From NCBI GenBank assembly GCA_001821435.1, contig MHLP01000007.1, positions 1,620-65,619 of the forward strand: a DNA stretch of 64,000 nucleotides, read 5' to 3'. Origin of the DNA: Candidatus Lloydbacteria bacterium RIFCSPLOWO2_01_FULL_50_20 (GTDB lineage Bacteria > Patescibacteriota > Minisyncoccia > Phycocordibacterales > UBA6899). The notes under the pieces were generated by a model. The model had not been told where the DNA came from. It saw only the letters and a list, made by a program, of their open reading frames with translations, and made no database searches. The position numbers and the translations under genes were made by a program. This document shows positions 9,362 through 26,140 of this stretch, piece after piece (positions within the stretch are counted from its first letter, which is position 1; every line of letters begins with the position of its first letter).

Positions 9362-9737
9362 CGAATAAATTATAGCATGCAGGTTTGCCTATCTTTTTAT
9401 GGAGAATGCGCAGGAGAAAGAGTGATAAATTTCCCTGAAGACTTTCTTTGCATGCTCGCATTACGTCGGGATATTTCTCAAGGACAACATTAAGGACATT
9501 TCATAATGTCCTTAATGTTCAGAATTTTTTCATTACCACATAATACCCATTTTTATATTTGAAATATTTTATCTTTGAGAGAATTTTTTTCACGGGTATT
9601 CATTATCACCTCATCACACTCTTTTATAATGAGCGTGCGCAAAAAAAAGATCACCATTCTTATTTTTTTAGGATATCTTTGCGGCCGTTTTTAAATTCCT
9701 TATATTTTTCTTTTGTTGCGGATTACACGCATTTCAC

Positions 9738-10616
9738 TTGGAATTTTTAACGAAAAATTTCCCTAAACTTATGATCATAAATTCACCCATACGAAATGTG
9801 GGCTACAAACGAAAATTGCCTTTTTTTATTCTCGCATGTTTTGCTGTTTTGTCGGGATTCATCTCCGCCCACTTTCTATTCACGGTTGAAGCAACCACCA
9901 GTTTTCCCATAAACAGTTCGTTTGAAAATACCGCTTCTTTGGAAGATGATGCGATAGGAGGGGTTAATGATATTGTCCTTGAGACAGAAGGGGATAACTC
10001 TGTGGATAACTTGGGCATTAATGAGTCTTTTTGTCGGCAGGCGTGACTACCGAAGCGGTCTCTCAGCAACGATATTCTCTCTCAAGGACAAAGCCGCAAA
10101 ATTTATCACAAAAAATGGAGAACCAGGAGGAGAAACAGGAACCGGCTGGCACGGAGAAACTTTTTGCAGCAGAGCCGGTAACTACCGATTCGCTTGATCT
10201 TTTTACTCTTATCAATAATTCAACGACGACGATCATCGGGAACATTCAAAGCGGCGATATGACCGGAACAGGAACGAAACTCTTGAATTTGCTTGCCACC
10301 CCCTCCGATCATTGGAGAGGCTGCCCCCTTAGACGACACGATGGGGAAGAATGTTTCCGCTTCTTTTCTCGAGTCCGACCATCCGACTGCTGTCACTTTT
10401 ACCGCAAAAGTAAAAGAAGGGCTCAGTATGCTCGGTTCCGCAGTAAACCCGCGAAGACTTTCCTCTCTCGACGGGTGGGTCATCTACATTATCTTTCGGG
10501 TAGTCCTTGCCGTAGCTCTCGGACTGTTTCACAAACGTCGATGCAGCAATCTCACCGTCGAGGAAGAAGCAATCAGGGAACAAATAACCAAAACAAAGAG
10601 GTATCCACGAATATAA
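9738..10616 (+). pseudogene. Possible disrupted gene for a secreted/surface protein split over three frames (9738-10046, 10031-10663, 10293-10616)
   Basis: N-terminal signal/TM segment, then successive overlapping ORFs in different frames, the last with a C-terminal TM plus basic tail; none individually convincing. Confidence 0.25.
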
Positions 10617-10677: not shown

Positions 10678-11886
10678 TCACTCCAGCCGCCAATTTCCGT
10701 CGGCACGGATGTCCGCGATGTCCGTCGTTCCGGAGCTATAGCGGAGCGCTCCTCCGACGGCGATCATGAGCGCGTTATCGGTGGAGAGCGCATGATCAGG
10801 AATATACAAAGAAATTCCCGGAAGTTTCTCGGCAACAGCTTCCGCGAGCATTTTTCGCAGACGTTTATTTGCGGAGACGCCTCCTCCGAGTACGATGGTC
10901 TTTGCGCCGGTCACTTCTGCCGCACGCACTGTTTTTGCGATAAGCACTTCAATGCATGCTTCCTCGAATTCCCGCGCGATGTCCGCCTTTTGCGTCTCGG
11001 CGAGCAGTCCGATCTTTTTTATAAGATACAGCACCGCAGTTTTGAGTCCCGCAAAAGAGAAATCATGATCACTGGACTGAAGCATCGGACGAGGGAGAGC
11101 AAACTTGCCGGGTGTTCCTGTCTCACCTAGGCGCGATATTTCGGGGCCTCCGGGGTAAGGAAGACCAAGCATGCGTGCCACCTTGTCGAAAGCTTCACCC
11201 ACCGCATCGTCCCGTGTTTCGCCGATCACTTCGTATGCACCCCAGTCATGCATAAGCACAAGCTCCGTATGTCCGCCGGAAACCAAGAGTCCGAGTAGGG
11301 GGAATGTTGCCGGCGCAAATTTATACCGGACATCTTCTCGCTCATTCCGCTTTTTTTCGCGCGAAGATGTCTCCGGAGCGATCCTCGTCAGAAGCGGTGA
11401 GAGTAGGTGACCCTCCATGTGGTTGACGGGTATAACGGGAATTTTCCATATTAATGACAGCGCTTTGGCGAAATTGAGACCAACCCAAAGCGCAGGCTCA
11501 AGTCCCGGTCCTCGGGTCACCGCTATCGCATCAAAGGGCGGACGGTCGACGTGCGGGATCTCCGTAATGAATTGTGCGAATAATTCCGGCTCATGATCGA
11601 GAATATCCCGGAAATCTTTTCTGAGCGGACTTTCGATGACATGCCGGCTTGTTTTTTTATAGAATCCCGCATCTTGTAATGTTTTGATGAACAGCGGAAC
11701 GAGCGAGCGTGCATGTTCCCGTTTTGCCAGCATAGGGAATACTCCGCCGTACTCTTTGTGTACGGCGATCTGCGAAAGCGTGTTATCGGCGAGGACGCGA
11801 AAAGTGACCGATGGAAGAGTGCCGTCAGTTTCAATGATGGAGAGCGCAGTCTCGTCGCAAGATGTCTCTATGCTCAATATGAACAT
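10678..11886 (-). CDS. tsaD: tRNA N6-adenosine threonylcarbamoyltransferase TsaD (Kae1/Gcp family), with an insertion
   Basis: N-terminal MFILSIETSCDETALSI signature; HxxH-type metal motif (NHMEGHLLS); 402 aa. Confidence 0.85.
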   Translation of the reverse strand: MFILSIETSCDETALSIIETDGTLPSVTFRVLADNTLSQIAVHKEYGGVFPMLAKREHARSLVPLFIKTLQDAGFYKKTSRHVIESPLRKDFRDILDHEPELFAQFITEIPHVDRPPFDAIAVTRGPGLEPALWVGLNFAKALSLIWKIPVIPVNHMEGHLLSPLLTRIAPETSSREKKRNEREDVRYKFAPATFPLLGLLVSGGHTELVLMHDWGAYEVIGETRDDAVGEAFDKVARMLGLPYPGGPEISRLGETGTPGKFALPRPMLQSSDHDFSFAGLKTAVLYLIKKIGLLAETQKADIAREFEEACIEVLIAKTVRAAEVTGAKTIVLGGGVSANKRLRKMLAEAVAEKLPGISLYIPDHALSTDNALMIAVGGALRYSSGTTDIADIRADGNWRLE

Positions 11887-12219
11887 GATCGCCGTCGGAG
11901 GAGCGCTCCGCTATTTCGGCAGTTACCATTAGAGCATAATTGCGAATAAATAGACAATTTACCGTGAAACACGCGAATGGAAACCAACGGTTCATTCAAT
12001 CATCATCTTCCTTGTGTTATAGTCTGAAAGTATTTGGCCGCTTAGACTGCAGATCGGGAATACGCATGAGAAAGAAAATCGTGTTTTCTTTCTCACCTGG
12101 AACGACGCCATCGCGTCCGGATACAGACCATGCAAAAAATGCAAACCTGTGCCATAGCTACGTTTGAACCGTAACTATTTCAGTTACGTTTTTATGCTTA
12201 AGTTTTGACTCGATGCGGC

Positions 12220-12305
12220 GGAGGAGGTGAGATTCGAACTCACGGTCCCCTTACGAGGACACTGCATTTCGAGTGCAGCGCACTAGACCACTATGCGACT
12301 CCTCC
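12220..12305 (-). tRNA. tRNA-Ser (anticodon CGA), class II long variable arm, no CCA encoded
   Basis: Reverse-complement fold: acceptor GGAGGAG/CTCCTCC, anticodon loop cuCGAaa, variable arm TCCTCGTAAGGGGACC, T-loop GTTCGAATC. Confidence 0.8.
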
Positions 12306-13193
12306 AAGAAAACGTTCCAAACGCTCGGAGTGTTTGAGATTACTCGTTCCAATTTCTTTGAAATATCTTACAATATTTTCTCTTTTCCGCAAATAGATCG
12401 ATCGATGTGTGCCAACTCCGCCAGTTGGATTATAATCTAGTGCCAGCAATATCTCGATGATATCTTTCCTTAGAGATTCGGAGGCACTGCTGAAGAGTAG
12501 TCCAATTCCTTGATAGCGTCGACCCTTTATTACACGAAAATCTTGGTACACCGATCCGTCCGTATCGAAAAGTCCCCGCAGAAAGCTTTTTTTGTAATTT
12601 TTATTTTGTGTTATCCACAGGGGAATATGCAGATTGCCAGCCAACTTATTTCCTTTGGGCATTCCCTTTTTGTGTAAAAAATTCACAAGATTTTTTGCGG
12701 TCACTACCACGGTAAGCGCATTCTGCCCCTTCTTTTTTCTGATGCGAGCGCGAAGACCAAAAAGGAGATAGATCATTTTTTGCACAAACTCCGCATGTTC
12801 ACTATCCGTTTTAGAATTAGTCGTTACACTCATCCAATATGTAGCGAGATGTCCATCGCCAATAAGGATGCCAAGGAATTCAGCGAGCAATCGTGAGTTT
12901 CTCGGGCGACGAATTTGAGTGAGCTGTTTGAATTGGGTTTTTCTTAAGTGATGAGTCCGTAGGGAATTTAATCCTCCCTTGCGCCGTCCTTCTTCTGTGC
13001 CAGGATTTCCATATAAACGAATGCGCGAATATCCACCCTCACTTGCAATATGCCTCAAGCGTGTTGCGCGAAATTCATTCATAAATTTCATGCTATATTT
13101 CGAGTAGCAATTTGTCAACCGGTCTACAGCAGGAAACTTGTTTTTTGTGCCGCATGATGTTAGTATCACAACCATCAGGCCCATCGTCTTCAT
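12291..13193 (-). CDS. Double-motif LAGLIDADG homing endonuclease (free-standing)
   Basis: Two LAGLIDADG motifs: LLAEFLGILIGDGHL and FLRGLFDTDGSVY; AT-rich; the stop codon overlaps the 5' end of tRNA-Ser and the start lies about 36 nt from tRNA-Glu. Confidence 0.8.
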   Translation of the reverse strand: MKTMGLMVVILTSCGTKNKFPAVDRLTNCYSKYSMKFMNEFRATRLRHIASEGGYSRIRLYGNPGTEEGRRKGGLNSLRTHHLRKTQFKQLTQIRRPRNSRLLAEFLGILIGDGHLATYWMSVTTNSKTDSEHAEFVQKMIYLLFGLRARIRKKKGQNALTVVVTAKNLVNFLHKKGMPKGNKLAGNLHIPLWITQNKNYKKSFLRGLFDTDGSVYQDFRVIKGRRYQGIGLLFSSASESLRKDIIEILLALDYNPTGGVGTHRSIYLRKRENIVRYFKEIGTSNLKHSERLERFLGGVA

Positions 13194-13228: not shown

Positions 13229-13300
13229 GGCCCTATCGTCTAATGGTTAGGACGGCGCCCTTTCACGGCGTAAATCGGGGTTCGACTCCCCGTGGGGTCA
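13229..13300 (+). tRNA. tRNA-Glu (anticodon TTC)
   Basis: Acceptor GGCCCTA/TGGGGTC with two G-U pairs, anticodon loop cuUUCac, T-loop GGTTCGACTCC; resembles E. coli tRNA-Glu. Confidence 0.75.
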
Positions 13301-13348
13301 CCTAAAGCAACAAAACGGCTCGCAAGAGCCTGGAATCCGTTTCTACAT

Positions 13349-14962
13349 TTATATTCCTGTTTTTTCAGACAGTCTAAGTTCGGAAAAGATTATTCGAGCG
13401 ATCCGATCTTTTTCCAGACCATTTGCCGAACGGTAATATGTAGCACCGGTTTTCAGCAGTTCGGAAAGTTTTACGACATCCTTGATCGTCTCGCTCATTG
13501 AACCGTCAGACGCCTCCTCAGCGGCACGTAACCCCTCGAGCTCAAGACTAATACGCGCCTCTTCGGCCACGATTGCCTCCGCACTATAGGCACCCGTGCG
13601 TAGGAGCAGAAGCCTGTTTGCGGTCAGATATGCGAGGTCCTCGCGGAGTTTTTTCTCAAGACGCTCTGCGTTATCGAGGTCGTTGAGCCGCTTCGTTTCC
13701 AAGACGGCGATGCCCGTGCTCGCGCGTGTCTCTATATATTCGAGCTCCGCATCGGTAAAAGACAGCGCATCTATAAGAGTACCGATCTTTTCGCCGATGA
13801 ATGCGAGGGTGAAGCTCTTGGTCGAATTCGAGCATCCCGGTGCGCATCGCGCCCCGTAGTAAATCATTCCTTTCTGCTCATAGGGGGTGTAGACACGTCC
13901 GCAAAGTACACAGCGAATCATTCCTCGCAATGGATGTTCGAGAACTTCGGCGTAGTGGGCGCTGATCTTCTTGCGTCGCAGCTGTAGCTGGACTCTGCCG
14001 AACACTTCATCAGTGACAAGAGCCTCATGGCTGATGCTTTGCAGCAGAACGCCATCATTCCCAGGCACCTTGCCCGCATAGAATGGGTTGGTCAGGATCT
14101 TATGGATCGAGTTGAAGGTAGGAATCCGCGGCACGGGGTCGATCTTGAGCCGGATATCGTCCTCTTCCTCAGCGAGGATCTCCTCATCGGTTCGCCGCCG
14201 ACGCATCGGCGGCATCGTCAACCCCCGTGCAATCGCCCTTCGCGCCAAGTCGGCTAAGGTCCACTGTCCTGTTGCGGCGAGTTCAAAGAGCTCTTTAATG
14301 ATCGGCGCGCGTACGGGGTCAATGGGTTTGTGCGCCATGTCGCCCGTGTTGAGATATCCGACCGGTGCGCGATGTGTGCAGATACCTCGTGCACGATTGC
14401 TGCGCATCGTTAGGGTAACCTTCTCGCGCGTGACCCGCGAGTGGTGCTCGGCAAACATACCATCGATATCCATATGCAGCTCGCCCGCGCTCGTCTTGTC
14501 GTAGTGCGCAAGCGTGAAGCGGATATCGATGCCGGCCTTCATAAGCTTGCGGAGTATTGTGTCGTCTCCTTTGTTTCTGCTCGCCCGATCCCAGCAGAGG
14601 AAAATGACACCCTTGAAATAGCCTTTGCTCAGCAACTGCACAAGTCGGTGGAACTTCGGCCGCTCCACCCGATAACGTACGGTATTGTTGTAGCCGAACG
14701 TGAGTCTGAGGTCTTCCTTGAAACCCGAATGTCTTTCCGAAATGATCCCGTCGGTCGCGAAGCTCTGGAGCGTGATCGGCGCGATCGCAAGGTGCTCGCG
14801 GTATGCAAAGCGGGCATTCTCGGACTTCTGATATTTGATCGAATTCTTCTGGTTGGCTGTGTCGTCCGTGCTCTTGCGGTTGTATATGAGAAAGTTGTTG
14901 CGGTACTTGCCGCTCTGGATCTCTTTCAGTACCTGCTTTTCATGTTCTGCACTCCTCGTCAT
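13349..14962 (-). CDS. Large serine recombinase/integrase (resolvase catalytic domain, recombinase domain, zinc ribbon, coiled-coil)
   Basis: N-terminal catalytic region YNRKSTDD (Ser nucleophile); zinc-ribbon CVLCGRVYTP...CAPGC; 537 aa; 3' end lies 48 nt from tRNA-Glu. Confidence 0.8.
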   Translation of the reverse strand: MTRSAEHEKQVLKEIQSGKYRNNFLIYNRKSTDDTANQKNSIKYQKSENARFAYREHLAIAPITLQSFATDGIISERHSGFKEDLRLTFGYNNTVRYRVERPKFHRLVQLLSKGYFKGVIFLCWDRASRNKGDDTILRKLMKAGIDIRFTLAHYDKTSAGELHMDIDGMFAEHHSRVTREKVTLTMRSNRARGICTHRAPVGYLNTGDMAHKPIDPVRAPIIKELFELAATGQWTLADLARRAIARGLTMPPMRRRRTDEEILAEEEDDIRLKIDPVPRIPTFNSIHKILTNPFYAGKVPGNDGVLLQSISHEALVTDEVFGRVQLQLRRKKISAHYAEVLEHPLRGMIRCVLCGRVYTPYEQKGMIYYGARCAPGCSNSTKSFTLAFIGEKIGTLIDALSFTDAELEYIETRASTGIAVLETKRLNDLDNAERLEKKLREDLAYLTANRLLLLRTGAYSAEAIVAEEARISLELEGLRAAEEASDGSMSETIKDVVKLSELLKTGATYYRSANGLEKDRIARIIFSELRLSEKTGI

Positions 14963-15104
14963 GCTCGGTTGTCGGTTTTATGATCTCGCCATTGATAATC
15001 GTGTATCCCTCCGATAACAGACGGTCGTGTACGCTGCGGAGCGCTTCGCCCAACTCAACGAGCGATGCGATGGTGTCATCGCTAAACGTCTGTTCCTCGG
15101 GACA

Positions 15105-15165
15105 CAAAGAGGGGCAACGAGAAGAGTCAGTGTTGCTACACAAAGACCCTCGTTGCCCCTCTTTG
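15105..15165. repeat. Perfect 17-bp inverted repeat (caaagaggggcaacgag / ctcgttgcccctctttg) with a 27-nt spacer, 140 nt upstream of the recombinase start
   Basis: Read directly; the spacer contains a cacaaaga direct repeat; candidate recombination site or regulatory hairpin. Confidence 0.6.
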
Positions 15166-15475
15166 GGTACAAGCTTGTTCTGCTCTTTTTGATCTTCGTG
15201 TAGCTCCTTCATAGTACAAAATGTGTCGCGCCCCGCAAGTCACTCCCTGGGGATCGACCGTCAGCCCAGCGTAGTCAAAGGAGACCGGTAATCCAAAGAC
15301 GCTGAAACGTGACTGGCAAGTCGCTCGCCGCTTGTTGGCCCAGCTCCGTCCAGACTTCCGATGTCAAATGTTTCGGCCTTAGGACTCGAGTCGCGACACG
15401 CGTTGCGCATGTTGTGAAGTAGGTACACCAGGGCAATCGTTATACGATTAGGGGCATATTCATAACCCCTCTCGT

Positions 15476-18400
15476 ATGGAGGAACATCGAGGGCTCTTTT
15501 TATTTATCAGCACACAGCGGCGTCAGAGTGCGCATCTGGTCGCACTCATCGTGGTCAGCATAACTTTGCTCATTCCCACGATCGCGTTCGCAGCAAACAA
15601 CGACCCATTTCGCAGTGGTCGTGAAGCAGTCAACCCCAAGCAGTCGGCTGGTGTAGGTCAATCGACCGGTGCCATGACCTACAGCTACCCCCTCGTCATT
15701 CCTCCGGGGCGAAATGGCGTACAACCCAACCTCTCCCTTAACTATTCGAGCGATGACAAACGCCCAGACAGTATTTTTGGATACGGCTGGTCGATGACGC
15801 TTCCATATATAGAACGTGTCAACAAACTGGGAACCAATAATTTATATAACCAAGATACTGCACACACCTTCTTCACCTCGTCGATTTCAGGGGAATTATT
15901 GCCGGTGGTTAATTCCACACCGATTGGCGGAAGTTTTCTGGGGATGATCCTGGGCGCTTCACCACTTGCGCTTCTTGAAACCTCCGAAGAATCAAATACC
16001 ACCCAAACGCAGAGCGAGCCGACTGAACAAAGTGCCAGCCCAGCGCCTGATCCAACGATTGTGAGCGATGAGATTGCTCAGTCATTCCATACATTTGCCG
16101 ACACGTTCTCGACTGCTTTTGTCTATCACCCAAACGAAGAAGGAGAGTGGAACAGTGCTCGCGAGCGAGGTACTCATGATGCAAAATTAGGCATCCCAGG
16201 ATTTCCCGTGGCCGGCAAGTCTCTGTCGCTCGTAAGCGTAATACCCAACCCCCTCACCCCCGCCCTCGAAAACCTTCCGGCAACGGAACGCGCCACCCTC
16301 AAGGGCGAAGCCATCGCGCAAATAGGCAGCATCCCTAAGACGCTCCACGGTGATTATTGGATCGAGGTCACCGCCATGAACCCCATCGAGGGCGGCGTCG
16401 AATTGTTCGCCCGCGCCTGGGATACAAATGACGATCCGATCGGCTTCGGCCAAGACGGTACTGTCGAGACCGAACGGTTCCGCATCTTTAACCCTCCTAT
16501 CCTGGTTGACGATCCCAATGGAACTATCGTCCGCACTTGGACCGATGAAATAACCAACGAAGTAAAGACTCGCACATTGCGAGAAGACCCCGTTCAAGCG
16601 ATCACCGAAACGCTTTTACACACCATCAGTCTCGTCGGAAGAGAAGACACGCAAATAAACGCCGGAAGCGTCGGAAACACAACTGATATTTTTTATCCCA
16701 GTACCGACGGTCGTGCGTACCGCATCCCCGCATCTGAAACATTTGCCACGATTCGCGCGGGTGCGGGTCAAGGTTCTCCCACTGGAGAGACGTCTGCTGC
16801 CGCCGTGACGCTTCAAGCATCGGGAACCAGTAATCAGTACAACGTGCTCACTCGCGGATTCTTTCTGTTTGACACATCTCCAATAGGCACTGACAGCATT
16901 TCATCTTCCACGCTCTCTCTTGTGGCTTCCAATACTTCTTTCTTCGACGACTTCACCGATAGTGTGGGAGTGGTTGCCGCAACCACGGCGTCAGATAGTG
17001 ACGTCGCCAACTCTGACTTTGAAGGAACAGTGGGGAATACGACAAGGTGGGCAACCGACAGAACAATTGCCAGTCTTGCCCATGACGATGCGACCTATAA
17101 CAGTTGGACATTGAATGCGACGGGGATTGCCGGGATCAACAAGACAGGGATCACCAAGATCGGCCTCAAGTCCGCCCTTGACATTGATAACACCGCACCG
17201 ACATGGGGAAGCGAGCTTGCATCGAATGTCATATTCTATTTTGCAGACAATGAAGGAGCAGGAACAACCGCTGACCCAAAATTAGTTGTTGTGCATTCCG
17301 CAGTTCCACAGGGCCCCACTAGCCTTCTGCTTGACGATCTGACCAATCCCTCGAATATCGCCACGAGCTCCCCGTACTTCTCGGCGATCCACGCGAACGC
17401 TTCCACCACCGCCTTAGCTACCAGCTACCAGATCCAAGTGGACACCGCCGGCACCTTCACCGCTCCCTATTGGGATTCCGGGAAGCGCACCCTCTCCTCC
17501 TCCACTCCGGCAGGCATGCGCTCACCAAACATCTACGCCACCAGCACCTTCGCACTCGATGGCACCACCTACTATTGGCGTCTCCGCTTTTACGATCAGA
17601 TGGGGGGAGTGGGGGACTATTCCACCGCGACGTCGACATTCAGGATGCGTTCGGCATCGACGGTGCTCCAAGACCTGAATTACACCTACGACGCGGTCGG
17701 GAACATCATCACCATCCAGGATTATTCCGGCAACAACGCTGCTGCCTCGACCACGTACACCTATGACAATCTCTATCGCTTAACGAGGGCGAGCAGCACG
17801 GATGCCGTCCTCACCAACTGGCTCCAGACGTATGCGTATGATGACCTCGGGAACATCACAAGCAAGAGCGATGTGGGGAGTTACACCTACGCGGGTACCG
17901 GCTGGGCCAATCCGCATGCGCCGACGACGGTGAATGGGGTGACGTATGGCTATGACGCAGCGGGGAATCTCACAAGTGCGGGAGCTGCCAGCTACTTCTG
18001 GAATTATCGCAACCGACTGACGGACACCAACGTCAATTCCACCACTACCCATTATCAATACGACCACCTTGATCAACGTGTTCAACAAGACGTGAAGATC
18101 GGAGCCTCCGCGACTTCAAGCACAATTTATTGGAGTAAACTTTTTGAGACCAAGGGGGCGACCACGACTTTGTATGTGTTTCTGCCCAATGGTGAACTCT
18201 TGGCGACGGTGGAGGGGAATGGGAGTGCGACCTCGACGTACATCGCACATACCGATCATCAGGGTTCGACTAATGTGATGAGTGATAAGAATGGAAATCT
18301 TGCACAACTTGCCACGTATTATCCGTTTGGGGGGAAGAGGAATAATGAACTTTCATCAAATGGGTTCCAAGAAAAGAGAGGATTCATAGGTCAATATGAA

Positions 18401-19255
18401 GATGCCGTCGTCCAACTCTCGTACCTAAATGCGAGATATTACGATATCACCCGAGGCCAATTTGCAAGTGAAGACCCACTAGTACAGAAGATCGGCCTTG
18501 ACCTCAAGGAAGTACAGCGGCTTCTTCTTGATCCACAGTTACAGAATTACTATTCTTATGCTCGCAATAATCCGATCAATTTAAGTGATCCGAGTGGAGA
18601 GGCAACCATCGGTCAGTTACTATCGCAGATCAGCGCGCTACTCACACAATTAAGTGCGGCTATAACGAAGCAATACTCTAGTACTGTGTCATCTGTTTCG
18701 AGCACCCTGCAAACAGTGAGTGCGGCAAGTACACAACAGGTATCGAAGGCAGTGAATACTGTTTACAACTTTCATGGTGGCGCAGGATTAACATTTGGCG
18801 GTGAGACTTCAGTTGGCGTACGGTCAGGAGGTGCTGGTGCTGGCGTCACTGCGCAACAATCCTACTCCTTTGGGGTTTTTAAGGACAAGGGATTCAAGTT
18901 CAGTATCGGCGGTTTTAAGAGTTACGGAAACGCATTTGCGGCAGGAGATACTGAAGTCACTTCTGCGGAATTGAATATGTGTCCTGTACTCACGGAACGA
19001 CCAGTTATATTTGGGCTTTCATACGGTGTTGGTGTCGGTGGCTTTGTTGCGCCTAACGCTGGCAGTGTTAATGATTTGTTGGGAACATCAAATTCAGTTT
19101 CTTATAATGCTCCATTTGGTAGCTTTCAATATTCCTTGGGAGAACAGCCGACGTATGCCTTGACCTACGGGCCACACCTATCAGGCGTAACCCCAGGCGC
19201 CTCGTACACTCAACTCCCTGTATCCAATGAACATTGGTTTAGTACTAGCCCTTAA
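15476..19255 (+). CDS. Secreted RHS/YD-repeat polymorphic toxin, 1259 aa: signal peptide, N-terminal and middle domains, a short YD-repeat block, an RHS repeat-associated core, and a Gly-rich C-terminal domain of unknown function
   Basis: YD repeats (YTYDAVGN, YAYDDLGN, YGYDAAGN); core ATYYPFGGKR and NARYYDITRGQFASEDP; canonical boundary YSYARNNPINLSDPSGE before the C-terminal domain (about aa 1046-1259). Confidence 0.8.
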   Translation: MEEHRGLFLFISTQRRQSAHLVALIVVSITLLIPTIAFAANNDPFRSGREAVNPKQSAGVGQSTGAMTYSYPLVIPPGRNGVQPNLSLNYSSDDKRPDSIFGYGWSMTLPYIERVNKLGTNNLYNQDTAHTFFTSSISGELLPVVNSTPIGGSFLGMILGASPLALLETSEESNTTQTQSEPTEQSASPAPDPTIVSDEIAQSFHTFADTFSTAFVYHPNEEGEWNSARERGTHDAKLGIPGFPVAGKSLSLVSVIPNPLTPALENLPATERATLKGEAIAQIGSIPKTLHGDYWIEVTAMNPIEGGVELFARAWDTNDDPIGFGQDGTVETERFRIFNPPILVDDPNGTIVRTWTDEITNEVKTRTLREDPVQAITETLLHTISLVGREDTQINAGSVGNTTDIFYPSTDGRAYRIPASETFATIRAGAGQGSPTGETSAAAVTLQASGTSNQYNVLTRGFFLFDTSPIGTDSISSSTLSLVASNTSFFDDFTDSVGVVAATTASDSDVANSDFEGTVGNTTRWATDRTIASLAHDDATYNSWTLNATGIAGINKTGITKIGLKSALDIDNTAPTWGSELASNVIFYFADNEGAGTTADPKLVVVHSAVPQGPTSLLLDDLTNPSNIATSSPYFSAIHANASTTALATSYQIQVDTAGTFTAPYWDSGKRTLSSSTPAGMRSPNIYATSTFALDGTTYYWRLRFYDQMGGVGDYSTATSTFRMRSASTVLQDLNYTYDAVGNIITIQDYSGNNAAASTTYTYDNLYRLTRASSTDAVLTNWLQTYAYDDLGNITSKSDVGSYTYAGTGWANPHAPTTVNGVTYGYDAAGNLTSAGAASYFWNYRNRLTDTNVNSTTTHYQYDHLDQRVQQDVKIGASATSSTIYWSKLFETKGATTTLYVFLPNGELLATVEGNGSATSTYIAHTDHQGSTNVMSDKNGNLAQLATYYPFGGKRNNELSSNGFQEKRGFIGQYEDAVVQLSYLNARYYDITRGQFASEDPLVQKIGLDLKEVQRLLLDPQLQNYYSYARNNPINLSDPSGEATIGQLLSQISALLTQLSAAITKQYSSTVSSVSSTLQTVSAASTQQVSKAVNTVYNFHGGAGLTFGGETSVGVRSGGAGAGVTAQQSYSFGVFKDKGFKFSIGGFKSYGNAFAAGDTEVTSAELNMCPVLTERPVIFGLSYGVGVGGFVAPNAGSVNDLLGTSNSVSYNAPFGSFQYSLGEQPTYALTYGPHLSGVTPGASYTQLPVSNEHWFSTSP

Positions 19256-19304
19256 ATATCAAGGGAGATAAAAACTTTATTCATTTAATTCTGAACTGAA
19301 AAAC

Positions 19305-19670
19305 ATGTTAGAAAATATTATGATTGCTTGCTTTTTCCTTGCCGGATTTGATTATCTATTTTTTGGTAAAGTGCTAATTACTTACCAGTTCACCGAAACC
19401 GAATTGAGGGTGATCTTATTAAAATTATTTCCACTACACATTATTCCCCTCAAAATAGTGGAGAAAGTTGAAAAGATTTCATACCCCAAAATGTTTGCGG
19501 GAATGGCAATTTATGTCAGCGCATTTCGTTCACGCGCATTTGGTGGCGGTGTTCTCATTAGAACAAGTACCAAGCATGGTAATGAAGTCGTTGTGACCCC
19601 CCCCCGTGTTGACGAATTCATTTCGGAAGTTAAGAGACGCGTGAGAGAAAAAACCAGAAGAGAAATATAA
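19305..19670 (+). CDS. Candidate immunity protein (small membrane-anchored protein immediately downstream of the toxin C-terminal domain)
   Basis: Position immediately 3' of the RHS C-terminal domain; AT-rich; N-terminal TM segment (IMIACFFLAGFDYLFFGKVLI). Confidence 0.45.
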   Translation: MLENIMIACFFLAGFDYLFFGKVLITYQFTETELRVILLKLFPLHIIPLKIVEKVEKISYPKMFAGMAIYVSAFRSRAFGGGVLIRTSTKHGNEVVVTPPRVDEFISEVKRRVREKTRREI

Positions 19671-19746
19671 CGCCCCCATGCTCCGCATCGCTGAAAAATT
19701 CCCACTCACCGAATCTCTTTGGAGCCGCTATCGCTCGCAACGAAAC

Positions 19747-19775
19747 GGGGACAGCCACCATTAATTGACTGATGG
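19747..19775. repeat. REP-like element (ggggacagccaccattaattgactgatgg)
   Basis: Shares the GGGGACAG core with the REPs flanking the RAYT gene at 48.5-49.3 kb; near-identical copy at 20070..20093. Confidence 0.55.
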
Positions 19776-19836
19776 TGTGGGGCAGAAATGGGGATAAGTC
19801 CGTTATTTAAATAAAATATGTGGTATTATATTCCCC

Positions 19837-20091
19837 ATGCCCAGACAAGCCAGAGTCGCCGTGGGGGATGTGGTCTATCATGTGATTAACCGCGCCAACG
19901 GCCGCGTGCGGATATTCCACTCCGACAAAGACTACCAACATTTTGAATCACTGCTTGAGGAAGCAAAAGAACTCACTGGTATGCGTATCCTCGCGTACGT
20001 GATCATGCCGAATCACTGGCATCTCGTGCTCTATCCAAGTCAAGACACTGATCTTTCTGGGGGGAAAATGGGGACAGCCACAATTGACTGA
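19837..20091 (+). pseudogene. Truncated HUH Y1 transposase (RAYT/IS200-like), N-terminal 84 aa only, lacking the catalytic Tyr
   Basis: Aligns with 48600..49232 (VYHVINRANGR..., HUH motif MPNHWHLVLYP) but stops before the YQGRY region; flanked by REP-like copies. Confidence 0.65.
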
Positions 20092-20093
20092 CC
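20070..20093. repeat. REP-like element (ggggacagccacaattgactgacc)
   Basis: Direct near-copy of 19747..19775. Confidence 0.55.
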
Positions 20094-20127
20094 TCTAAAA
20101 TAACGAGGTGAGGTTCCCAGAACCTGA

Positions 20128-20685
20128 TCACGGTCGATGAATCTCCTTAAGCAAGTCGGCAAGAACATCGCAGAACTGGTACCCGGTTTCGGGCGGCTTT
20201 CCGGTCGCCGCATCCACCGGCTTTCGGAGACTAGGCGGAAGTTCGATGTGATACGACGTCCACCTAGCGTCAGAAATCGTGACCGCCTTGCTCGCTTTGA
20301 ACTTCAATGTATCGTATTCACCACGAATCGCCAGCTTCTTGAGATCGTCTGCAGAAGAAGCAAACGCTCCCTCGAGCTTTCCAGCAAGTGCTTGAGAGAA
20401 CTTGTCGTTCACCGCGCTACCGGAGGAGATTTCCACCACATCGGAACCCGCTTTCTTTCCGCCGTGTCCGTGGATCTCCACTAACAGTCTCGGCTTCCAT
20501 TGGGCTATCTGTTCGGTGTAGTCGGTATCAGCGCGCTTGTTGACGTCGACGCGGTAGTTGCAGGCTATGACGCTGCAGCAGTCCAACCGTTCGGCAAGGT
20601 AGCGCCCGAGAAATCCGGCATTTTCGTCTGCGTCTTCATGTTCCGGACACGGCAGTTTCGGTGTGACCCTCCCCCCGAATTTCAT
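20128..20685 (-). CDS. Hypothetical protein (possible hydrolase; contains HGHGG)
   Basis: 185-aa ORF with no confidently recognised family; bracketed by REP-like elements. Confidence 0.35.
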   Translation of the reverse strand: MKFGGRVTPKLPCPEHEDADENAGFLGRYLAERLDCCSVIACNYRVDVNKRADTDYTEQIAQWKPRLLVEIHGHGGKKAGSDVVEISSGSAVNDKFSQALAGKLEGAFASSADDLKKLAIRGEYDTLKFKASKAVTISDARWTSYHIELPPSLRKPVDAATGKPPETGYQFCDVLADLLKEIHRP

Positions 20686-20733
20686 ACACCAATCTTGTAA
20701 TTATTCGTTAGAATAGTTGCATATGACGGTAAT

Positions 20734-20877
20734 GGGGACAGTCACGATTAAATAGCAAAGAGTATGGTCTAATATTTCCATTAATTCTCTTGCAATATGT
20801 TACGATAGCGGATAGCGAATGCGGTCGCACGCGAATAATTATGACACGTGTTTATGAAATCAATCGTGACTGTCCCC
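20734..20877. repeat. Pair of perfect 16-nt inverted REP-like repeats (ggggacagtcacgatt ... aatcgtgactgtcccc) enclosing about 112 nt (BIME/MITE-like)
   Basis: Read directly; same GGGGACAG core as the RAYT-flanking REPs. Confidence 0.6.
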
Positions 20878-22414
20878 ATTCTCCATTCTCCTCATTCTCC
20901 CGATGTTTTGCGGCGAGCGCTGCGGCGACGGTCCATGCCTGGATCTCCTGAGGAGGCTGCTCGATACGGTTCTTTACGCCACGTGATTCATCCCAGATGT
21001 CCACAATCCGTTCGTTCAATGTTGGTTCGGCATCGTCACCGCCTTGAGCAAATTCAGGAAACTTATTGAACTTACTGACGACCGCGAACATGCGCTCTTC
21101 GAGGTCGTCGGCCGCGGCAATATGCCCGTGTTTTCTTAGGCCGCATGCGATCATATATGAATCCCACAGCCACACGCTTCCATTGTGATATGCACCGGGC
21201 CGGAAACGGGGCTCATTTTTCGCAAGCGTCCGTATTCCGCTCGCAGAGAGCATAAGGGGAGACAAGAGTGTAGTGACGATCGCGGATCTTTTTTTGACGG
21301 TATCCAGGTCGTCGCCGATGAGCATGTCCGAAGAAAGCAGATGCCCCATGTTCGAGGTACGGATCGCAAGCTGACGGGGATTCCCTTGGCTGTCCCGGTC
21401 TGTTCCGAGGGCAAAAAAACTTTCTCCATTCTTCTCTTCGACCCACATTTCACTGAACACAGATGATCGCAATTTTTCCGCCCGCGATAGGAGGTCATCG
21501 GCGACCGAGGCGGCAAAACGTTCATCCCTCGGCATTTTTTCAAAGATCTTCCGATACAATTTACTTGCCGAGAGAAGCGCGTCATACGCATAACCTTGCA
21601 CCTCGACGGAAGCGATACCCCGCGCATGGTTCGCTATTGCACCGTCCGCGTGGAAATAGGAGTCGTTGGAGTCTTTCCATGCTTGGTTCAAAATGCCGTT
21701 CGGATTTGCGCGGCAAAATTCGACGAATCCTTGCGGGTTCGCGTCCATGCGTTTTTTGATCCAGTTCACTGCGCCGACAAGCGCGTCAAGAATTGTCCTC
21801 CTCTCTCCGTCTTTGTTCGTGAATATCCGTCCCAATATGCACCTGTTTTCTTGAGCGATGTATTCCGTGATCAGTTTCACGAAGAGCGGCGTCGTGTCGA
21901 CTGAGCCGTAATAGGGGAATTCCCAGCCGCGCTCCTCACGCAAAAATTTTCCGATCGCGGACCGATGATCGCGATATTCATGAAGGATGCGGCCAGGTTC
22001 TTCTTCGGCGTGAGACTCGTATCTCGTCCCCTGAAACTTCGCGAGCCGTATAATCGTCATCCGGGCAAGCAGAGGAAATTGCGGAAGAAGAAATGAAGAG
22101 ACGACAAGCGAGTCTCTTCCAAAAAATGCCGAAAAGAGATTTAGTTCCTCGACATCCTCGTTGGCTTCGGTGGCAAGTGCCGCGAAAGGCGGGCCGTGTT
22201 TTCCTATTTCACCGGGAGTCTTTGCGTGCGTCAGACGCATCAACTCCGTGAGTGCATCCGGTCGTTTTGTTGGTGTAACGATCAAAGGTTTTTCGACTGC
22301 GATGACCCGTTCGTTCGGAAGCAGGTAGGGGATAAGATCGGCAACTGCTTTCGTCAGATCGGTTTCTTCGGTAGCTGGTGTTTCATTCATGTTGCCGTGA
22401 GTTGATTGCGTCAA
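20852..22414 (-). CDS. Glycoside hydrolase with an (alpha/alpha)6-barrel, glycogen debranching enzyme/amylo-alpha-1,6-glucosidase-like
   Basis: 520 aa; GDE C-terminal-like motifs (NGSVWLWD, GYAYDA, acidic residues); family assignment from memory. Confidence 0.5.
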   Translation of the reverse strand: MTQSTHGNMNETPATEETDLTKAVADLIPYLLPNERVIAVEKPLIVTPTKRPDALTELMRLTHAKTPGEIGKHGPPFAALATEANEDVEELNLFSAFFGRDSLVVSSFLLPQFPLLARMTIIRLAKFQGTRYESHAEEEPGRILHEYRDHRSAIGKFLREERGWEFPYYGSVDTTPLFVKLITEYIAQENRCILGRIFTNKDGERRTILDALVGAVNWIKKRMDANPQGFVEFCRANPNGILNQAWKDSNDSYFHADGAIANHARGIASVEVQGYAYDALLSASKLYRKIFEKMPRDERFAASVADDLLSRAEKLRSSVFSEMWVEEKNGESFFALGTDRDSQGNPRQLAIRTSNMGHLLSSDMLIGDDLDTVKKRSAIVTTLLSPLMLSASGIRTLAKNEPRFRPGAYHNGSVWLWDSYMIACGLRKHGHIAAADDLEERMFAVVSKFNKFPEFAQGGDDAEPTLNERIVDIWDESRGVKNRIEQPPQEIQAWTVAAALAAKHRENEENGEWGQSRLIS

Positions 22415-23497: not shown

Positions 23498-23697
23498 GAG
23501 CTAAATAGTACCATAAATCATGAAAAAATGCAATGCGAATGCGTATACCCGCCTTATCAGATATTCATGCGTTGGATAGTACAGGGCTCTCGACTACCGT
23601 CGCGGGTGGTTTTCGATTTACTCGAACGAAGTTCTCGTAAATAACGAAAACCCTTTCGAGCCCCGCCGAAGCACAAGCAGCTGTGCTTCTACTGCTG

Positions 23698-23770
23698 TGG
23701 ACGGTACAGGGCTCGAACCTGTGACCCCAGCAATGTGAATGCTGTGCTCTACCAACTGAGCTAACCGTCC
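23698..23770 (-). tRNA. tRNA-Val (anticodon CAC)
   Basis: Reverse-complement fold: acceptor GGACGGT/ACCGTCC, D-arm GCTCAGTTGGTAGAGC, anticodon loop uuCACau, T-loop GGTTCGAGCCC. Confidence 0.8.
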
Positions 23771-25607: not shown

Positions 25608-26140
25608 GTGTTTTTAATTGCACCATTTACAGAACATGATTATTTAAGTATAATCACTTCTACAAAATCAGCCAAACAGCCGGGTCGTCCTTTTTTTGGC
25701 GAAATGATGGACAGGATAGAAAAAGGAGAGGCAAGCGGCATTTTGTGCTGGAAAATAGATCGGTTGTCCCGGACGAAATGTATGTGCGTAAAGAAACGGA
25801 ACTTCTGGAGAAGAAAAGAGATCTGAAGCGATTGCTTGACGGGGATGATAAGCGGGTAGATGACTGGCTCGTTCGGCTTGAAAGTACTCTCACTTTTGCG
25901 GAGAGGGCGAGAGAGGAGTTCAAAAATGGTGACATTGCCAAGAGAAGGCAAATTCTGACAGCACTTGGAACCGAGCATATCCTTAAAGACAGGGCAATTC
26001 ACATTCAAACGGAAAAACCACTCCTTGTGCTTCAAGAAGTGGTTTCCGTGAACAATCAACTGATGGATTCGTTAGAACCTCCCAAGGGTGTTGAAAACAA
26101 TGGGCGGATGAAACAAATCTATGCTGAAAGTTCATCAATG
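25608..26140 (+). pseudogene. Degraded serine recombinase remnant (catalytic-domain fragment plus C-terminal region in another frame) abutting the tRNA-Val(GAC) 3' end
   Basis: GRPFFGEMMDRIEKGEASGILCWKIDRLSR matches the resolvase-domain core (..LvvwKlDRLgR); the N-terminal Ser region is missing; frameshift into the 25745.. ORF. Confidence 0.55.

What the first reader, a model, noticed from the sequence alone, without database searches (positions are those of the whole stretch)
13229..20880. Integrase-associated island at tRNA-Glu carrying the RHS toxin module
An intact large serine recombinase (13349..14962) lies convergent with tRNA-Glu, and its 3' end is 48 nt from the tRNA. Continuing away from the tRNA are a 17-bp perfect inverted repeat, the RHS toxin and immunity pair, and a truncated RAYT flanked by REP-like copies. 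Next come a hypothetical hydrolase-like ORF and a 16-nt perfect inverted-repeat pair. GC composition fluctuates, and the immunity gene is AT-rich. This is the signature of a tRNA-targeted integrative element delivering a toxin cargo. The far boundary is not defined from the sequence alone.
Basis: inference. Interest (0 to 1): 0.65.

Follow-up and report, generated by a model that had tools for sequence, protein, structure and literature searches.

The report
Stump of a tRNA-targeting, self-splitting serine-integrase element
The recombinase gene next to tRNA-Glu is the decayed remnant of an apparently undescribed kind of small bacterial mobile plasmid whose serine integrase carries its attachment site inside its own gene and inserts at the very end of tRNA genes; whether that element brought in the neighbouring RHS toxin gene could not be shown.

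Summary
A 2-nt deletion near 13357 cuts the ORF short, and the family's conserved C-terminus continues in another frame, antisense through tRNA-Glu.

The tRNA/recombinase junction is a true integration junction. Of 67 distinct complete homologous 3' ends from metagenomes, 38 read antisense into a tRNA (31 Glu, 4 Ala, 2 Arg, 1 Leu). In 15 loci the displaced C-terminal piece lies 1.7-9.7 kb upstream at the other end of the element. All 15 pairs rejoin in frame at a 4-6-nt core (GTGAC for tRNA-Glu; window 13297-13301). One relative is a circular 11.8-kb contig with the gene unsplit. So attP lies inside the integrase gene and attB is the extreme 3' end of a tRNA gene, which I did not find described for a serine integrase.

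In this window only a stump remains (13297 to about 15240). There is no replication module and no distal junction anywhere in 64 kb, and the arrangement looks fixed in the species.

The RHS/immunity pair lies in a variable region that ends by 23.7 kb. Its delivery by this element is unproven (about 0.35).

The parts
13229..13302 (+). tRNA-Glu(UUC). This is the host half of the junction (the B' arm of attB). The gene is intact.
   Evidence: ARAGORN; Rfam tRNA at 61 bits, 13229-13300.
13297..13301 (.). Crossover core GTCAC (GTGAC on the recombinase strand), at the discriminator base A13300. Host DNA lies to the left and element DNA to the right.
   Evidence: Homology to unsplit relatives (L009) runs through GGTGACCCCACGGG and then switches to tRNA sequence. 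Fifteen junction pairs in relatives share only GTGAC(C), GTGC or GTGGAC. A DNA HMM of the sites finds only this position in the window.
13240..13356 (-). Out-of-frame continuation of the recombinase reading frame (EYKCRNGFQALASRFVALGDPTGSRTPIYAVKGRRPNH*). The part before the core is the P arm of the old attP. The part after it is an antisense read-through of the tRNA.
   Evidence: tblastn of homologue C-termini, up to 78% identity over 37 aa; three-frame translation.
13349..14962 (-). Large serine recombinase gene, truncated by a 2-nt deletion near 13357 (537 aa against 556-590 aa in relatives). The catalytic Ser31 (YNRKST), the four zinc-ribbon Cys and the coiled coil are present. The last beta-strand and last helix are lost.
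   Evidence: Pfam; alignment; AlphaFold model of homologue P0001; Foldseek hits to Bxb1, PhiC31 and LI integrases at E down to 3e-14.
14940..15212 (-). Conserved 90-aa partner ORF whose stop overlaps the recombinase start. Function unknown; a candidate regulator or directionality factor (inference).
   Evidence: tblastn finds it directly upstream of the recombinase in 78 of the related loci examined. No Pfam, PHROGs or NCBIfam match.
15105..15165 (.). 17-bp perfect inverted repeat with a 27-nt loop, inside the small ORF. Its arms are built from family-conserved motifs (GAGGGGCAACGAG; GACTTTTGTGTAGC). It is not the att site.
   Evidence: This is the best-conserved DNA of the region across relatives, 75-83% identity.
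15213..15240 (.). Last DNA with homology to the element family. This is the right-hand limit of the recognisable stump.
   Evidence: blastn against L009/L010 stops at 15239. No F2, F3, F4, F5 or F11 module genes are found in the window.
15476..19255 (+). RHS/YD-repeat toxin gene: SpvB N-terminal domain, YD shell, Rhs core at aa 948-1041 and a variable C-terminal tip. Whether it belongs to the element is undetermined.
   Evidence: The low-GC, compositionally deviant tip is shown.
19305..19670 (+). 121-aa ORF in the immunity position. AT-rich, with no family match.
19743..20880 (.). REP-like repeat cluster: copies at 19743-19769, 20066-20092 and 20730-20756 (+), and 20862-20880 (-). It encloses a truncated Y1 (RAYT/IS200-like) gene at 19837-20091 (+) and an unassigned 185-aa ORF at 20128-20685 (-).
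23697..23770 (-). tRNA-Val(CAC). This is the upper bound for any island, because from here on the order tRNA-Val(CAC), tRNA-Val(GAC), o302, o407 is shared with the closest available relative.
   Evidence: Synteny with L020 and ten further relatives.

Best explanation
The tRNA-Glu/recombinase boundary is an attL-type junction left by a small integrative, plasmid-like element of Patescibacteria.

How the family works:
- The elements are 5-12 kb circles. They carry a replication module (a primase-helicase or a 458-aa Walker NTPase, plus DUF5659 and other small genes), a conserved small ORF, a large serine recombinase, and variable cargo on the opposite strand.
- attP lies inside the last ~35 codons of the recombinase gene.
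- attB is the extreme 3' end of a tRNA gene, mostly tRNA-Glu.
- Strand exchange takes place in a 4-6-nt core at the discriminator base, so the whole tRNA is kept.
- The recombinase gene is split by integration. Its terminal alpha-helix (WLSEL...I..SI..L) ends up at the far end of the element, and the integrated gene instead reads antisense into the tRNA.
- Excision would rebuild the full-length gene.

What is in this window: only a stump survives, about 13297 to 15240. It consists of the core, a recombinase gene further broken by a 2-nt deletion, and the small ORF with its hairpin. The replication module, any cargo and the distal junction have been lost, and the arrangement is fixed in this Lloydbacteria species, so the element is very probably immobile.

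The RHS/immunity cassette, the REP/RAYT debris and the 185-aa ORF lie in a variable segment that ends no later than 23.7 kb. That the RHS arrived with this element is possible but not shown.

Shown: the junction, the split-gene architecture, the tRNA targets, a circular form of a relative, and the decay in this window. Inferred: that the recombinase itself catalyses the reaction, the role of the small ORF, and any regulatory meaning of the helix swap.
For: **The junction in the window**
- Homologue C-termini match window 13356-13246 on the minus strand, antisense to the tRNA.

**Family-wide pattern**
- Two tail classes exist among the 120 closest homologues, 69 with their own WLSEL tail and 37 reading into a tRNA.
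- Among 67 distinct complete 3' ends from JGI metagenome loci, 38 run antisense into an intact tRNA: 31 Glu, 4 Ala, 2 Arg, 1 Leu.
- The two states are interleaved on a similarity tree, needing at least 19 state changes, so this is repeated recombination rather than one ancestral fusion.

**Split gene**
- In 15 loci the missing tail lies on the same strand 1.7-9.7 kb upstream, next to host genes.
- All 15 pairs rejoin in frame at the shared core to give 573-586-aa proteins, or 550 aa for the internally deleted L116.

**Free form**
- Contig L153 (11,834 nt) has a 127-nt terminal overlap, so it is circular. It carries the unsplit gene with the same modules as integrated L142, L143, L144 and L180.
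- The starts of contigs L110 and L148 show the attP join.

**Sequence constraint**
- Synonymous-site conservation rises from about 0.40 to 0.53-0.71 over the last ~90 codons.

**Protein**
- The recombinase has a large-serine-recombinase fold.
- The crossover maps to the loop (aa 552-560 of P0001) just before the terminal helix 561-586.

**Decay in the window**
- The 2-nt deletion is seen.
- DNA homology to the family ends at 15239, and no replication-module genes are present.
- No distal junction is found.
- In an independent look-up through the neighbouring LAGLIDADG gene, all nine places listed (of 16 contigs read) had the recombinase ORF ending 155 nt from that gene.
- L116 is an analogous decayed remnant reduced to the recombinase gene.

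**Not ancestral**
- Relatives have tRNA-Glu followed within 0.3-7 kb by o302/o407 or by unrelated genes.
Against: - Everything is computational. No recombination assay exists for any member.
- Unsplit copies also sit on 240-860-kb contigs of non-CPR phyla. There the gene is not split, and I did not work out how, or whether, those elements integrate.
- About half of the tRNA-joined loci with 9-10 kb of upstream flank show no tail, so larger or differently organised elements exist.
- The exact crossover dinucleotide is not resolved.
- The displaced tail of the window's element could lie elsewhere in the genome after a rearrangement. Only 64 kb could be searched.
Confidence: 0.8

Rival explanations
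1. The RHS/immunity cassette, and perhaps the REP/RAYT block, entered as cargo of this same recombinase element. The island originally ran from 13.3 kb to about 19.7-20.9 kb, and its replication module and distal junction were later deleted or overwritten by the REP/RAYT insertion.
For: - RHS and the immunity-position ORF lie on the strand opposite the recombinase. That is the usual place and orientation of cargo in 10 of 13 delimited elements.
- The two closest RHS homologues (P0123, P0125) lie 0.4-9.6 kb from large serine recombinase genes, in regions that also carry SIR2/HerA-like and OLD/UvrD-like genes.
- The segment 13.3-23.7 kb is absent from relatives.
- The REP/RAYT debris begins right after the immunity ORF, where a distal junction would be expected.
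Against: - No RHS occurs in any of the 13 delimited elements or about 90 related loci.
- The recombinases next to the RHS homologues belong to other families, at 21% identity or no match.
- In L131 an RHS-like fragment lies 0.9 kb outside the distal junction.
- No tail remnant is found at 19.67-20.9 kb by HMM or by eye.
- Composition is not shared specifically between the recombinase and the RHS.
Confidence: 0.35
2. An intact, still mobile tRNA-Glu island of about 7.6 kb (13229-20880) with a functional recombinase.
For: A long ORF retains the catalytic serine and the recombinase domains. The proximal junction is intact.
Against: - The frameshift removes a conserved beta-strand and helix.
- No distal junction exists within 50 kb.
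- No replication module is present.
- No empty-site or circular variant appears among the contigs read in the two look-ups (16 each), which come from about 12 samples.
Confidence: 0.05
3. A domesticated recombinase or invertase acts on the 17-bp inverted repeat to switch RHS expression.
For: A perfect inverted repeat lies between the recombinase and the RHS.
Against: - The repeat lies inside a conserved ORF that accompanies the recombinase in 78 related loci, none of which has an RHS.
- The 27-nt spacer is far too short for an invertible segment (established knowledge of serine invertases).
- The recombinase is frameshifted.
Confidence: 0.03
4. The overlap of recombinase and tRNA is a chance or assembly artefact.
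For: The source is a metagenome-assembled genome.
Against: The same junction appears in independent assemblies from ENA, NCBI, JGI and Logan. The same architecture appears in 38 other distinct loci. All 15 split pairs rejoin in frame, with a chance probability of about 7e-8.
Confidence: 0.01

Closest known systems
Phage and ICE large serine integrases (Bxb1, PhiC31, A118/LI, TP901-1, CcrAB)
   Same: The domain order is the same: catalytic Ser domain, recombinase domain, zinc ribbon and coiled coil. attP and attB share only a very short core rather than a long direct repeat. A small gene lies next to the integrase.
   Different: The target is the 3' end of tRNA genes. Mageeney et al. [quoted passage not shown] The carriers are 5-12-kb replicative circles of Patescibacteria, and no close homologue is present in IMG/VR.
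SSV-type 'suicidal' tyrosine integrases of archaeal viruses and plasmids (SSV1, SSV2, pTN3, pT26-2)
   Same: The recombination site lies within the integrase's own gene, which is fragmented on integration. By my own knowledge of SSV1, the target there is also a tRNA gene. The review PMC8371274 calls this a compact integrase-plus-att module.
   Different: [quoted passage not shown] The family here is a bacterial serine recombinase. The cut removes only the last ~30 residues (one helix), and the truncated gene gains a tRNA-antisense tail, so it may remain active.
Integration-dependent immunity of mycobacteriophages BPs and Brujita (from memory: Broussard et al. 2013)
   Same: attP sits inside a coding sequence, so integration changes the C-terminus of a protein and thereby its behaviour.
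   Different: There the split gene is the repressor and the integrase is a tyrosine recombinase. Here the integrase itself is split. No functional consequence has been shown for this family.
Tycheposons and other small tRNA-targeted replicative islands (Hackl et al., bioRxiv 10.1101/2020.12.28.424599)
   Same: Both are small elements next to tRNA genes, with a site-specific integrase, a primase/helicase module and variable cargo. 27 of 937 tycheposon-like elements carry a large serine recombinase.
   Different: Tycheposons are defined in Prochlorococcus and are overwhelmingly tyrosine-recombinase based. A split integrase gene is not mentioned in the passages I read.
Rhs/YD-repeat polymorphic toxins with downstream immunity genes
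   Same: The protein has an SpvB N-terminal domain, a YD shell, an Rhs-associated core (aa 948-1041) and a low-GC variable tip, followed by a small AT-rich ORF.
   Different: Neither toxin activity nor immunity is assigned, because the tip and the small ORF have no family match. The host is an ultrasmall Lloydbacteria.

Membership tests
Large serine recombinase (serine integrase) | N-terminal resolvase-type catalytic domain with the nucleophilic serine | tested here: met
   PF00239 at E = 1.9e-12. Ser31 in YNRKST is invariant across two alignments of 10 and 50 sequences.
Large serine recombinase (serine integrase) | C-terminal recombinase domain, zinc ribbon and coiled coil | tested here: met
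   PF07508. Cys351, Cys354, Cys373 and Cys377 are invariant. The model has long helices at 404-448 and 461-484. Foldseek matches full-length Bxb1, PhiC31 and LI integrases at E from 3e-14 to 1e-10.
Large serine recombinase (serine integrase) | Complete, undisrupted reading frame in this window | tested here: not met
   A 2-nt deletion near 13357 truncates the ORF about 37 codons before the stop used by integrated relatives.
Large serine recombinase (serine integrase) | Catalyses attP x attB recombination | not testable with these tools
   This needs an in vivo or in vitro assay.
tRNA-targeted integrative element (genomic island) | Integrase gene at one end, abutting a tRNA gene that stays intact | tested here: met
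tRNA-targeted integrative element (genomic island) | A second junction (attR) that delimits the element | tested here: not met
   Absent from the 64-kb window. Present in 15 related loci.
tRNA-targeted integrative element (genomic island) | Empty site in related genomes | tested here: inconclusive
   More distant relatives (TsaD 46-66% identical) lack the recombinase and carry other genes after tRNA-Glu. No empty site was found within the species, and the exact-tRNA scan of JGI metagenomes found nothing.
tRNA-targeted integrative element (genomic island) | Excised circular form | tested here: inconclusive
   Seen for relatives: circular contig L153 and the attP joins in L110 and L148. Not seen for the window's element.
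Self-splitting ('suicidal', SSV-type) integrase | att site inside the integrase ORF, so the gene is partitioned on integration | tested here: met
   Fifteen split pairs all rejoin in frame. The same junction is present in the window.
Self-splitting ('suicidal', SSV-type) integrase | Tyrosine recombinase fold; archaeal host | tested here: not met
   The fold is a serine recombinase. The hosts are Patescibacteria. It works like the SSV type but is not a member.
Rhs/YD polymorphic toxin-immunity pair | YD/RHS repeats and an Rhs-associated core, followed by a variable C-terminal tip | tested here: met
   PF05593 and PF03534; TEN_YD-shell, precomputed; TIGR03696 at aa 948-1041; deviant low-GC tip.
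Rhs/YD polymorphic toxin-immunity pair | Identifiable toxin domain and cognate immunity protein | tested here: inconclusive
   No significant family match for the tip or for the 121-aa ORF. The assignment rests on position alone.
REP/RAYT system | Y1 (IS200-like) transposase flanked by repeated palindromic REP copies | tested here: inconclusive
   The Y1_Tnp match covers only half the profile. Four local repeat copies are present, but there are no further copies in the 64 kb.

The most novel reading that the evidence does not exclude
This locus is a fossil of an undescribed class of bacterial mobile elements. They are small replicative circles of Patescibacteria whose large serine integrase carries attP inside its own coding sequence and inserts at the discriminator base of tRNA genes. 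This would be the first self-splitting integrase outside Archaea and the first in the serine family. The swap of the terminal helix for a tRNA-antisense peptide would then act as a built-in switch that makes the integrated enzyme differ from the free one, controlling directionality or locking the element in.
Probability: 0.55. Interest if true: 0.8.

Novelty: new variant of a known kind. Interest (0 to 1): 0.68.

Why it matters
Serine integrases are major genome-engineering tools, and their natural targets are regarded as non-tRNA. A 2020 survey called tRNA use by serine integrases unreported and in need of proof (PMC7192596). Self-splitting integrases are described as an exclusively archaeal, tyrosine-family trait (PMC8371274). 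This family gives 38 independent tRNA insertions, 15 delimited elements and one circular form, so both statements can now be tested directly.

It also provides compact integrase-plus-attP modules aimed at a very conserved target, the 3' end of tRNA-Glu. It is also one of the few mobile-element types that can be delimited in ultrasmall CPR bacteria.

For this particular window the practical message is more modest. The recombinase is a dead remnant, and the RHS toxin should not be annotated as its cargo without further evidence.

Tried and rejected
- Searching for a direct repeat of the tRNA-Glu 3' end (26-nt, 21-nt and 14-nt probes with 2-3 mismatches) found only the tRNA itself. In hindsight the test does not suit this family, which shares only 4-6 nt.
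- The 15105-15165 inverted repeat is not attP. It lies inside the conserved small ORF, and other family members pair different arms.

**Candidate distal junctions in the window, all rejected**
- 15282-15296 (-), TTGGATTACCGGTCT: three mismatches, no GTGAC at the fixed 9-nt spacing, and 8.5 such hits are expected by chance.
- 25467, GTGACC...TTGGCTTCC: wrong spacing of 14 nt.
- 29438, GTGATC...TGGATTTCCGGAA: lies inside the conserved host gene o407.
- 19705, CTCACC near CTGAAA: not picked up by either HMM.

**Searches that gave nothing useful**
- An exact search for the window's tRNA-Glu in JGI metagenomes returned 0 hits.
- IMG/VR holds only a 31%-identical recombinase, so there is no evidence the elements are phages.
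- Looking for an empty-site strain through exact LAGLIDADG and recombinase look-ups found the same arrangement at every place shown.
- GC, GC3 and dinucleotide signatures did not help to delimit the island.
- An inovirus identity, suggested by element size and by Roux 2019, has no support in PHROGs or Pfam for the 458-aa NTPase.
- Rfam found nothing but tRNAs between 9 and 28 kb.

Full report
**Source and setting**

The window comes from a Patescibacteria (CPR) genome. Its RHS protein is identical to one that NCBI names from 'Candidatus Lloydbacteria bacterium RIFCSPLOWO2_01_FULL_5...'. The same locus is on MHLK01000059.1 of GCA_001821385.1.

Gene order around the finding is:
- a class-I aminoacyl-tRNA synthetase at 7157-9361 (-)
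- TsaD at 10678-11886 (-)
- tRNA-Ser(CGA) at 12217-12305 (-)
- a free-standing LAGLIDADG ORF at 12291-13193 (-)
- tRNA-Glu(UUC) at 13229-13302 (+)
- the recombinase at 13349-14962 (-)
- a 90-aa ORF at 14940-15212 (-)
- RHS at 15476-19255 (+)
- a 121-aa ORF at 19305-19670 (+)
- a Y1-transposase fragment at 19837-20091 (+)
- a 185-aa ORF at 20128-20685 (-)
- an MGH1-like glycoside hydrolase at 20852-22414 (-)
- small ORFs, then tRNA-Val(CAC) at 23697-23770 (-)
- AdoMetDC and SpeE
- tRNA-Val(GAC) at 26140-26213 (-)
- an S41 peptidase
- two conserved genes, here called o302 (27933-28841) and o407 (29142-30365)

**Checking the observation**

The important exception is the word 'intact'.

The 120 closest homologues are 57-72% identical over the whole protein and mostly 560-610 aa long. 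Aligned with them, the window protein stops at FSELRLSEKTGI*. The homologues continue ...SENTLxYKCKxGFxALxSRFVxxxDPTGWLSEL....

A tblastn search with the homologues' C-termini found the missing part in the window itself, at 13356 down to 13246 on the minus strand. It lies in another frame and antisense to tRNA-Glu, with up to 78% identity over 37 residues. Direct translation gives EYKCRNGFQALASRFVALGDPTGSRTPIYAVKGRRPNH*.

Codon by codon, the window has ...TCT GAA AAA ACA G GAA TAT AAA TGT... where relatives have a full Leu codon. This is a 2-nt deletion near 13357.

**What the overlap with the tRNA means**

At the DNA level the window and the closest unsplit relative (L009, 72% protein identity) are homologous through ...GCTTTAGGTGACCCCACGGG. 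After that point the window continues as tRNA (GAGTCGAACCCC...), while L009 continues TTGGATTTCCGAACTG, coding W-I-S-E-L.

The 120 homologues fall into two classes:
- Class A (69 proteins) ends in a WLSEL...I..SI..L tail.
- Class B (37 proteins) ends in ...DPTG(N/S)RTP..., which is the antisense translation of a tRNA T-arm.

ARAGORN confirmed complete tRNA-Glu genes antisense under the 3' ends of class B genes in independent genomes: L013 (UUC) and L017 (CUC).

I then fetched 80 metagenome loci using an alignment of the family. Among 67 distinct, complete 3' ends:
- 38 run into an intact tRNA (17 Glu-CUC, 14 Glu-UUC, 3 Ala-UGC, 1 Ala-GGC, 1 Arg-GCG, 1 Arg-CCU, 1 Leu-CAA)
- 24 have their own tail
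- 5 are aberrant

The two classes are interleaved on a similarity tree and need at least 19 state changes. The tRNA fusion has therefore arisen many times.

**The split gene**

If attP lies in the 3' end of the gene, the displaced tail must sit at the other end of an integrated element. It should be on the same strand and next to host DNA. A profile of class A tails found exactly this in 15 class B loci, and only in that orientation, 1.7-9.7 kb upstream of the tRNA.

The two junctions of each element share only GTGAC(C) for tRNA-Glu, GTGC for tRNA-Leu and tRNA-Arg, and GTGGAC for tRNA-Ala. On the tRNA strand this is ...C72-A73-C. The exchange therefore happens at the discriminator base and the whole tRNA remains host DNA.

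Joining the recombinase gene to the distal tail at the shared core gives, in all 15 cases, an uninterrupted ORF with a class A tail. The products are 573-586 aa, or 550 aa for the internally deleted L116. The chance of 15 in-frame joins out of 15 is about 7e-8.

Three further points support the model:
- Contig L153 (11,834 nt) has a 127-nt terminal overlap, so it is a circle. It carries the unsplit gene behind the same gene modules as the integrated L142, L143, L144 and L180.
- Contigs L110 and L148 begin with the attP join.
- Among codons for the same amino acid, the fraction of identical codons rises from about 0.40 over most of the gene to 0.53-0.71 over the last ~90 codons. The only other peak is the 5' overlap with the small ORF. 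This indicates a nucleotide-level constraint where attP is proposed to be.

**The enzyme and the swapped piece**

Pfam finds the Resolvase and Recombinase domains. Ser31 and four zinc-ribbon cysteines are invariant.

An AlphaFold model of P0001 (mean pLDDT 79) matches full-length Bxb1, PhiC31 and LI integrase structures, with E from 3e-14 to 1e-10. After the coiled coil the model shows:
- a beta-hairpin at aa 526-540 (FSEL...YKC)
- a helix at aa 542-551 (GFQALASRFV)
- a loop at aa 552-560 (PLGDPTGW), which corresponds to the crossover
- a terminal helix at aa 561-586

Integration therefore removes exactly the terminal helix and replaces it with about 17 residues encoded by the antisense tRNA. 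The window's extra frameshift also removes the second hairpin strand and helix 542-551.

**What the elements are**

Thirteen delimited elements (5.4-9.7 kb) share an operon on the recombinase strand:
- a DUF5659 protein
- either a 447-500-aa Walker NTPase or a 427-673-aa AAA_25 / DnaB-like primase-helicase
- two or three small proteins
- the small ORF, which tblastn finds directly upstream of the recombinase in 78 of the related loci examined
- the recombinase

Variable genes lie on the opposite strand at the distal end. Examples are a peptidoglycan-binding/LamG surface protein, a 1368-aa NACHT-like NTPase and an Mrr-type nuclease.

IMG/VR contains no close homologue. The elements look like small replicative integrative plasmids.

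Tandem tails in L114, L142 and L155 point to successive insertions at one tRNA. L116 is a 1.7-kb remnant holding only the recombinase gene with both junctions.

**The state of the window's copy**

DNA homology to the family runs from the tRNA core (13297-13301) to 15239, which is 27 nt upstream of the small ORF's start, and then stops. None of the replication-module families is encoded anywhere in the first 30 kb.

No distal junction is present in the 64 kb. This was tested with tblastn at E up to 100, a protein HMM over the six frames, a DNA HMM of 37 tail sites that recovers only the proximal junction, and pattern searches.

The look-up by the exact recombinase shows the same neighbourhood at all eight places listed. 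An independent look-up through the LAGLIDADG gene shows, at all nine places listed, a recombinase ORF ending 155 nt away. Both look-ups read 16 contigs, from about a dozen samples. The frameshift and the insertion therefore appear fixed in this species.

The simplest reading is a stump: proximal junction, broken recombinase gene and small ORF, with the rest deleted.

**How far could an island extend, and is the RHS cargo?**

TsaD, the synthetase, PrsW and HSP20 are syntenic across 80 Paceibacteria relatives. On the other side, at least eleven relatives have tRNA-Ser and tRNA-Glu followed within 0.3-7 kb by o302 and o407.

The closest relative available is L020 (TsaD 64% identical). It has an ABC transporter, a lipase and a surface protein in place of the window's 13.3-23.7 kb. 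It then shares the order tRNA-Val(CAC), tRNA-Val(GAC), o302. The variable segment therefore ends by 23,697.

Within that segment, composition does not help. The recombinase and the RHS N-terminal part fall within the host range. Only the RHS tip and the immunity-position ORF deviate, as is usual for Rhs tips.

Against the RHS being cargo:
- No related locus has an RHS.
- In L131 an RHS-like fragment (50% identical to aa 53-146) lies 0.9 kb outside the distal junction.

For it being cargo:
- Its position and orientation match the cargo zone of intact elements.
- The two closest RHS homologues (49% and 42% identity) sit 9.6 kb and 0.4 kb from large serine recombinase genes. Those recombinases are unrelated to this family, and the neighbourhoods also hold SIR2/HerA-like and OLD/UvrD-like genes.

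I put the chance that this element brought the RHS at about 0.35.

**Comparison with what is known**

Mageeney et al. [quoted passage not shown] They add that their 14 of 297 cases need experimental proof. Hackl et al. list 27 of 937 tRNA-associated Prochlorococcus elements as carrying a large serine recombinase. Durrant et al. do not mention tRNA.

[quoted passage not shown] Six full-text searches found no description of a serine integrase with attP inside its own gene.

The family therefore works like an SSV-type self-splitting integrase but is not a member of that group. It is a large serine recombinase with an unusual target and an unusual att-site placement.

**Limits**

- All evidence is computational.
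- The crossover dinucleotide is not fixed.
- Unsplit copies on very long contigs of Proteobacteria, Bacteroidota and Acidobacteriota were not explained.
- About half of the tRNA-joined loci with long flanks show no tail within 10 kb.
- Only 64 kb of this genome could be searched.

**Verdict**

The finding is real but was mis-described. The island as drawn (13229-20880, carrying RHS as cargo) is not demonstrated. What is demonstrated is a dead proximal end of a self-splitting, tRNA-targeting serine-integrase element. Through it, a widespread and apparently undescribed element family has come to light.

Noticed in passing
window 12291-13193 (-), with tRNA-Ser at 12217-12305: A free-standing 300-aa LAGLIDADG ORF lies between tRNA-Ser(CGA) and tRNA-Glu, and its 3' end overlaps tRNA-Ser by about 15 nt. 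A 37%-identical LAGLIDADG ORF sits at the same place in relative L022, so it appears to be conserved at this locus rather than intron-borne.
   Followed up: partly
window 19743-20880: The REP-like motif AATGGGGACAG[C/T]CAC occurs four times here and nowhere else in the 64 kb. The truncated Y1 transposase ORF ends inside the second copy, and two copies form the 19-nt perfect inverted repeat that brackets the region upstream of the 185-aa ORF.
   Followed up: partly
L185/L186 (RHS homologue P0123) and L187/L188 (RHS homologue P0125): The two closest homologues of the RHS protein lie 9.6 kb and 0.4 kb from large serine recombinase genes of other families. Each of those recombinases also has a 63-65-aa ORF just upstream. 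The neighbourhoods hold SIR2/HerA-like and OLD-TOPRIM/UvrD (Gabija-like) genes. RHS genes of CPR bacteria therefore seem to travel on recombinase-bearing islands.
   Followed up: partly
L153 (JGI contig Ga0315274_10013035, 11,834 nt): A circular contig with a 127-nt terminal overlap carries the unsplit recombinase and the full replication module. It is a candidate free form of the element and a good source of attP for experiments.
   Followed up: yes
Recombinase family alignment, last ~90 codons (window equivalent about 13240-13510): Synonymous sites are unusually conserved over about 270 nt, which is much longer than a typical 50-bp attP. There is a second peak about 180 nt upstream of the crossover. 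An additional cis element embedded in the gene's 3' end is possible.
   Followed up: no
window 15105-15165 and the homologous small ORFs (for example L165, L141, L152, L168): The small ORF contains two conserved DNA motifs (GAGGGGCAACGAG and GACTTTTGTGTAGC). Different family members form a hairpin from different motif pairs: A with A' in the window, B' with B elsewhere. This could be a protein operator or an RNA structure.
   Followed up: partly
L011, L012, L123, L135, L159 (contigs of 240-504 kb): Unsplit copies of the recombinase occur on long contigs. The two with named sources (L011 Casimicrobiaceae, L012 Bacteroidetes) lie next to TrwB/TraG-like ATPases, RadC and ArdC, and one is near a tyrosine integrase. 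How these copies are integrated is unexplained.
   Followed up: no
L114, L142, L155: Two displaced recombinase tails lie in tandem upstream of one recombinase/tRNA junction. This suggests successive insertions at the same tRNA, leaving remnants.
   Followed up: partly
L130 distal junction compared with its tRNA junction: The displaced host flank reads ...GGTCACCA (encoded CCA), while the tRNA after integration ends ...GGTCACAATT. Integration therefore removes the encoded CCA end, and the host must rely on a CCA-adding enzyme.
   Followed up: no
window 9250-9999: A sharply AT-rich stretch (GC 0.34-0.36) lies between the aminoacyl-tRNA synthetase and TsaD and carries two small unassigned ORFs. 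The spacing between these two genes varies from about 0.05 to 5 kb among relatives.
   Followed up: no
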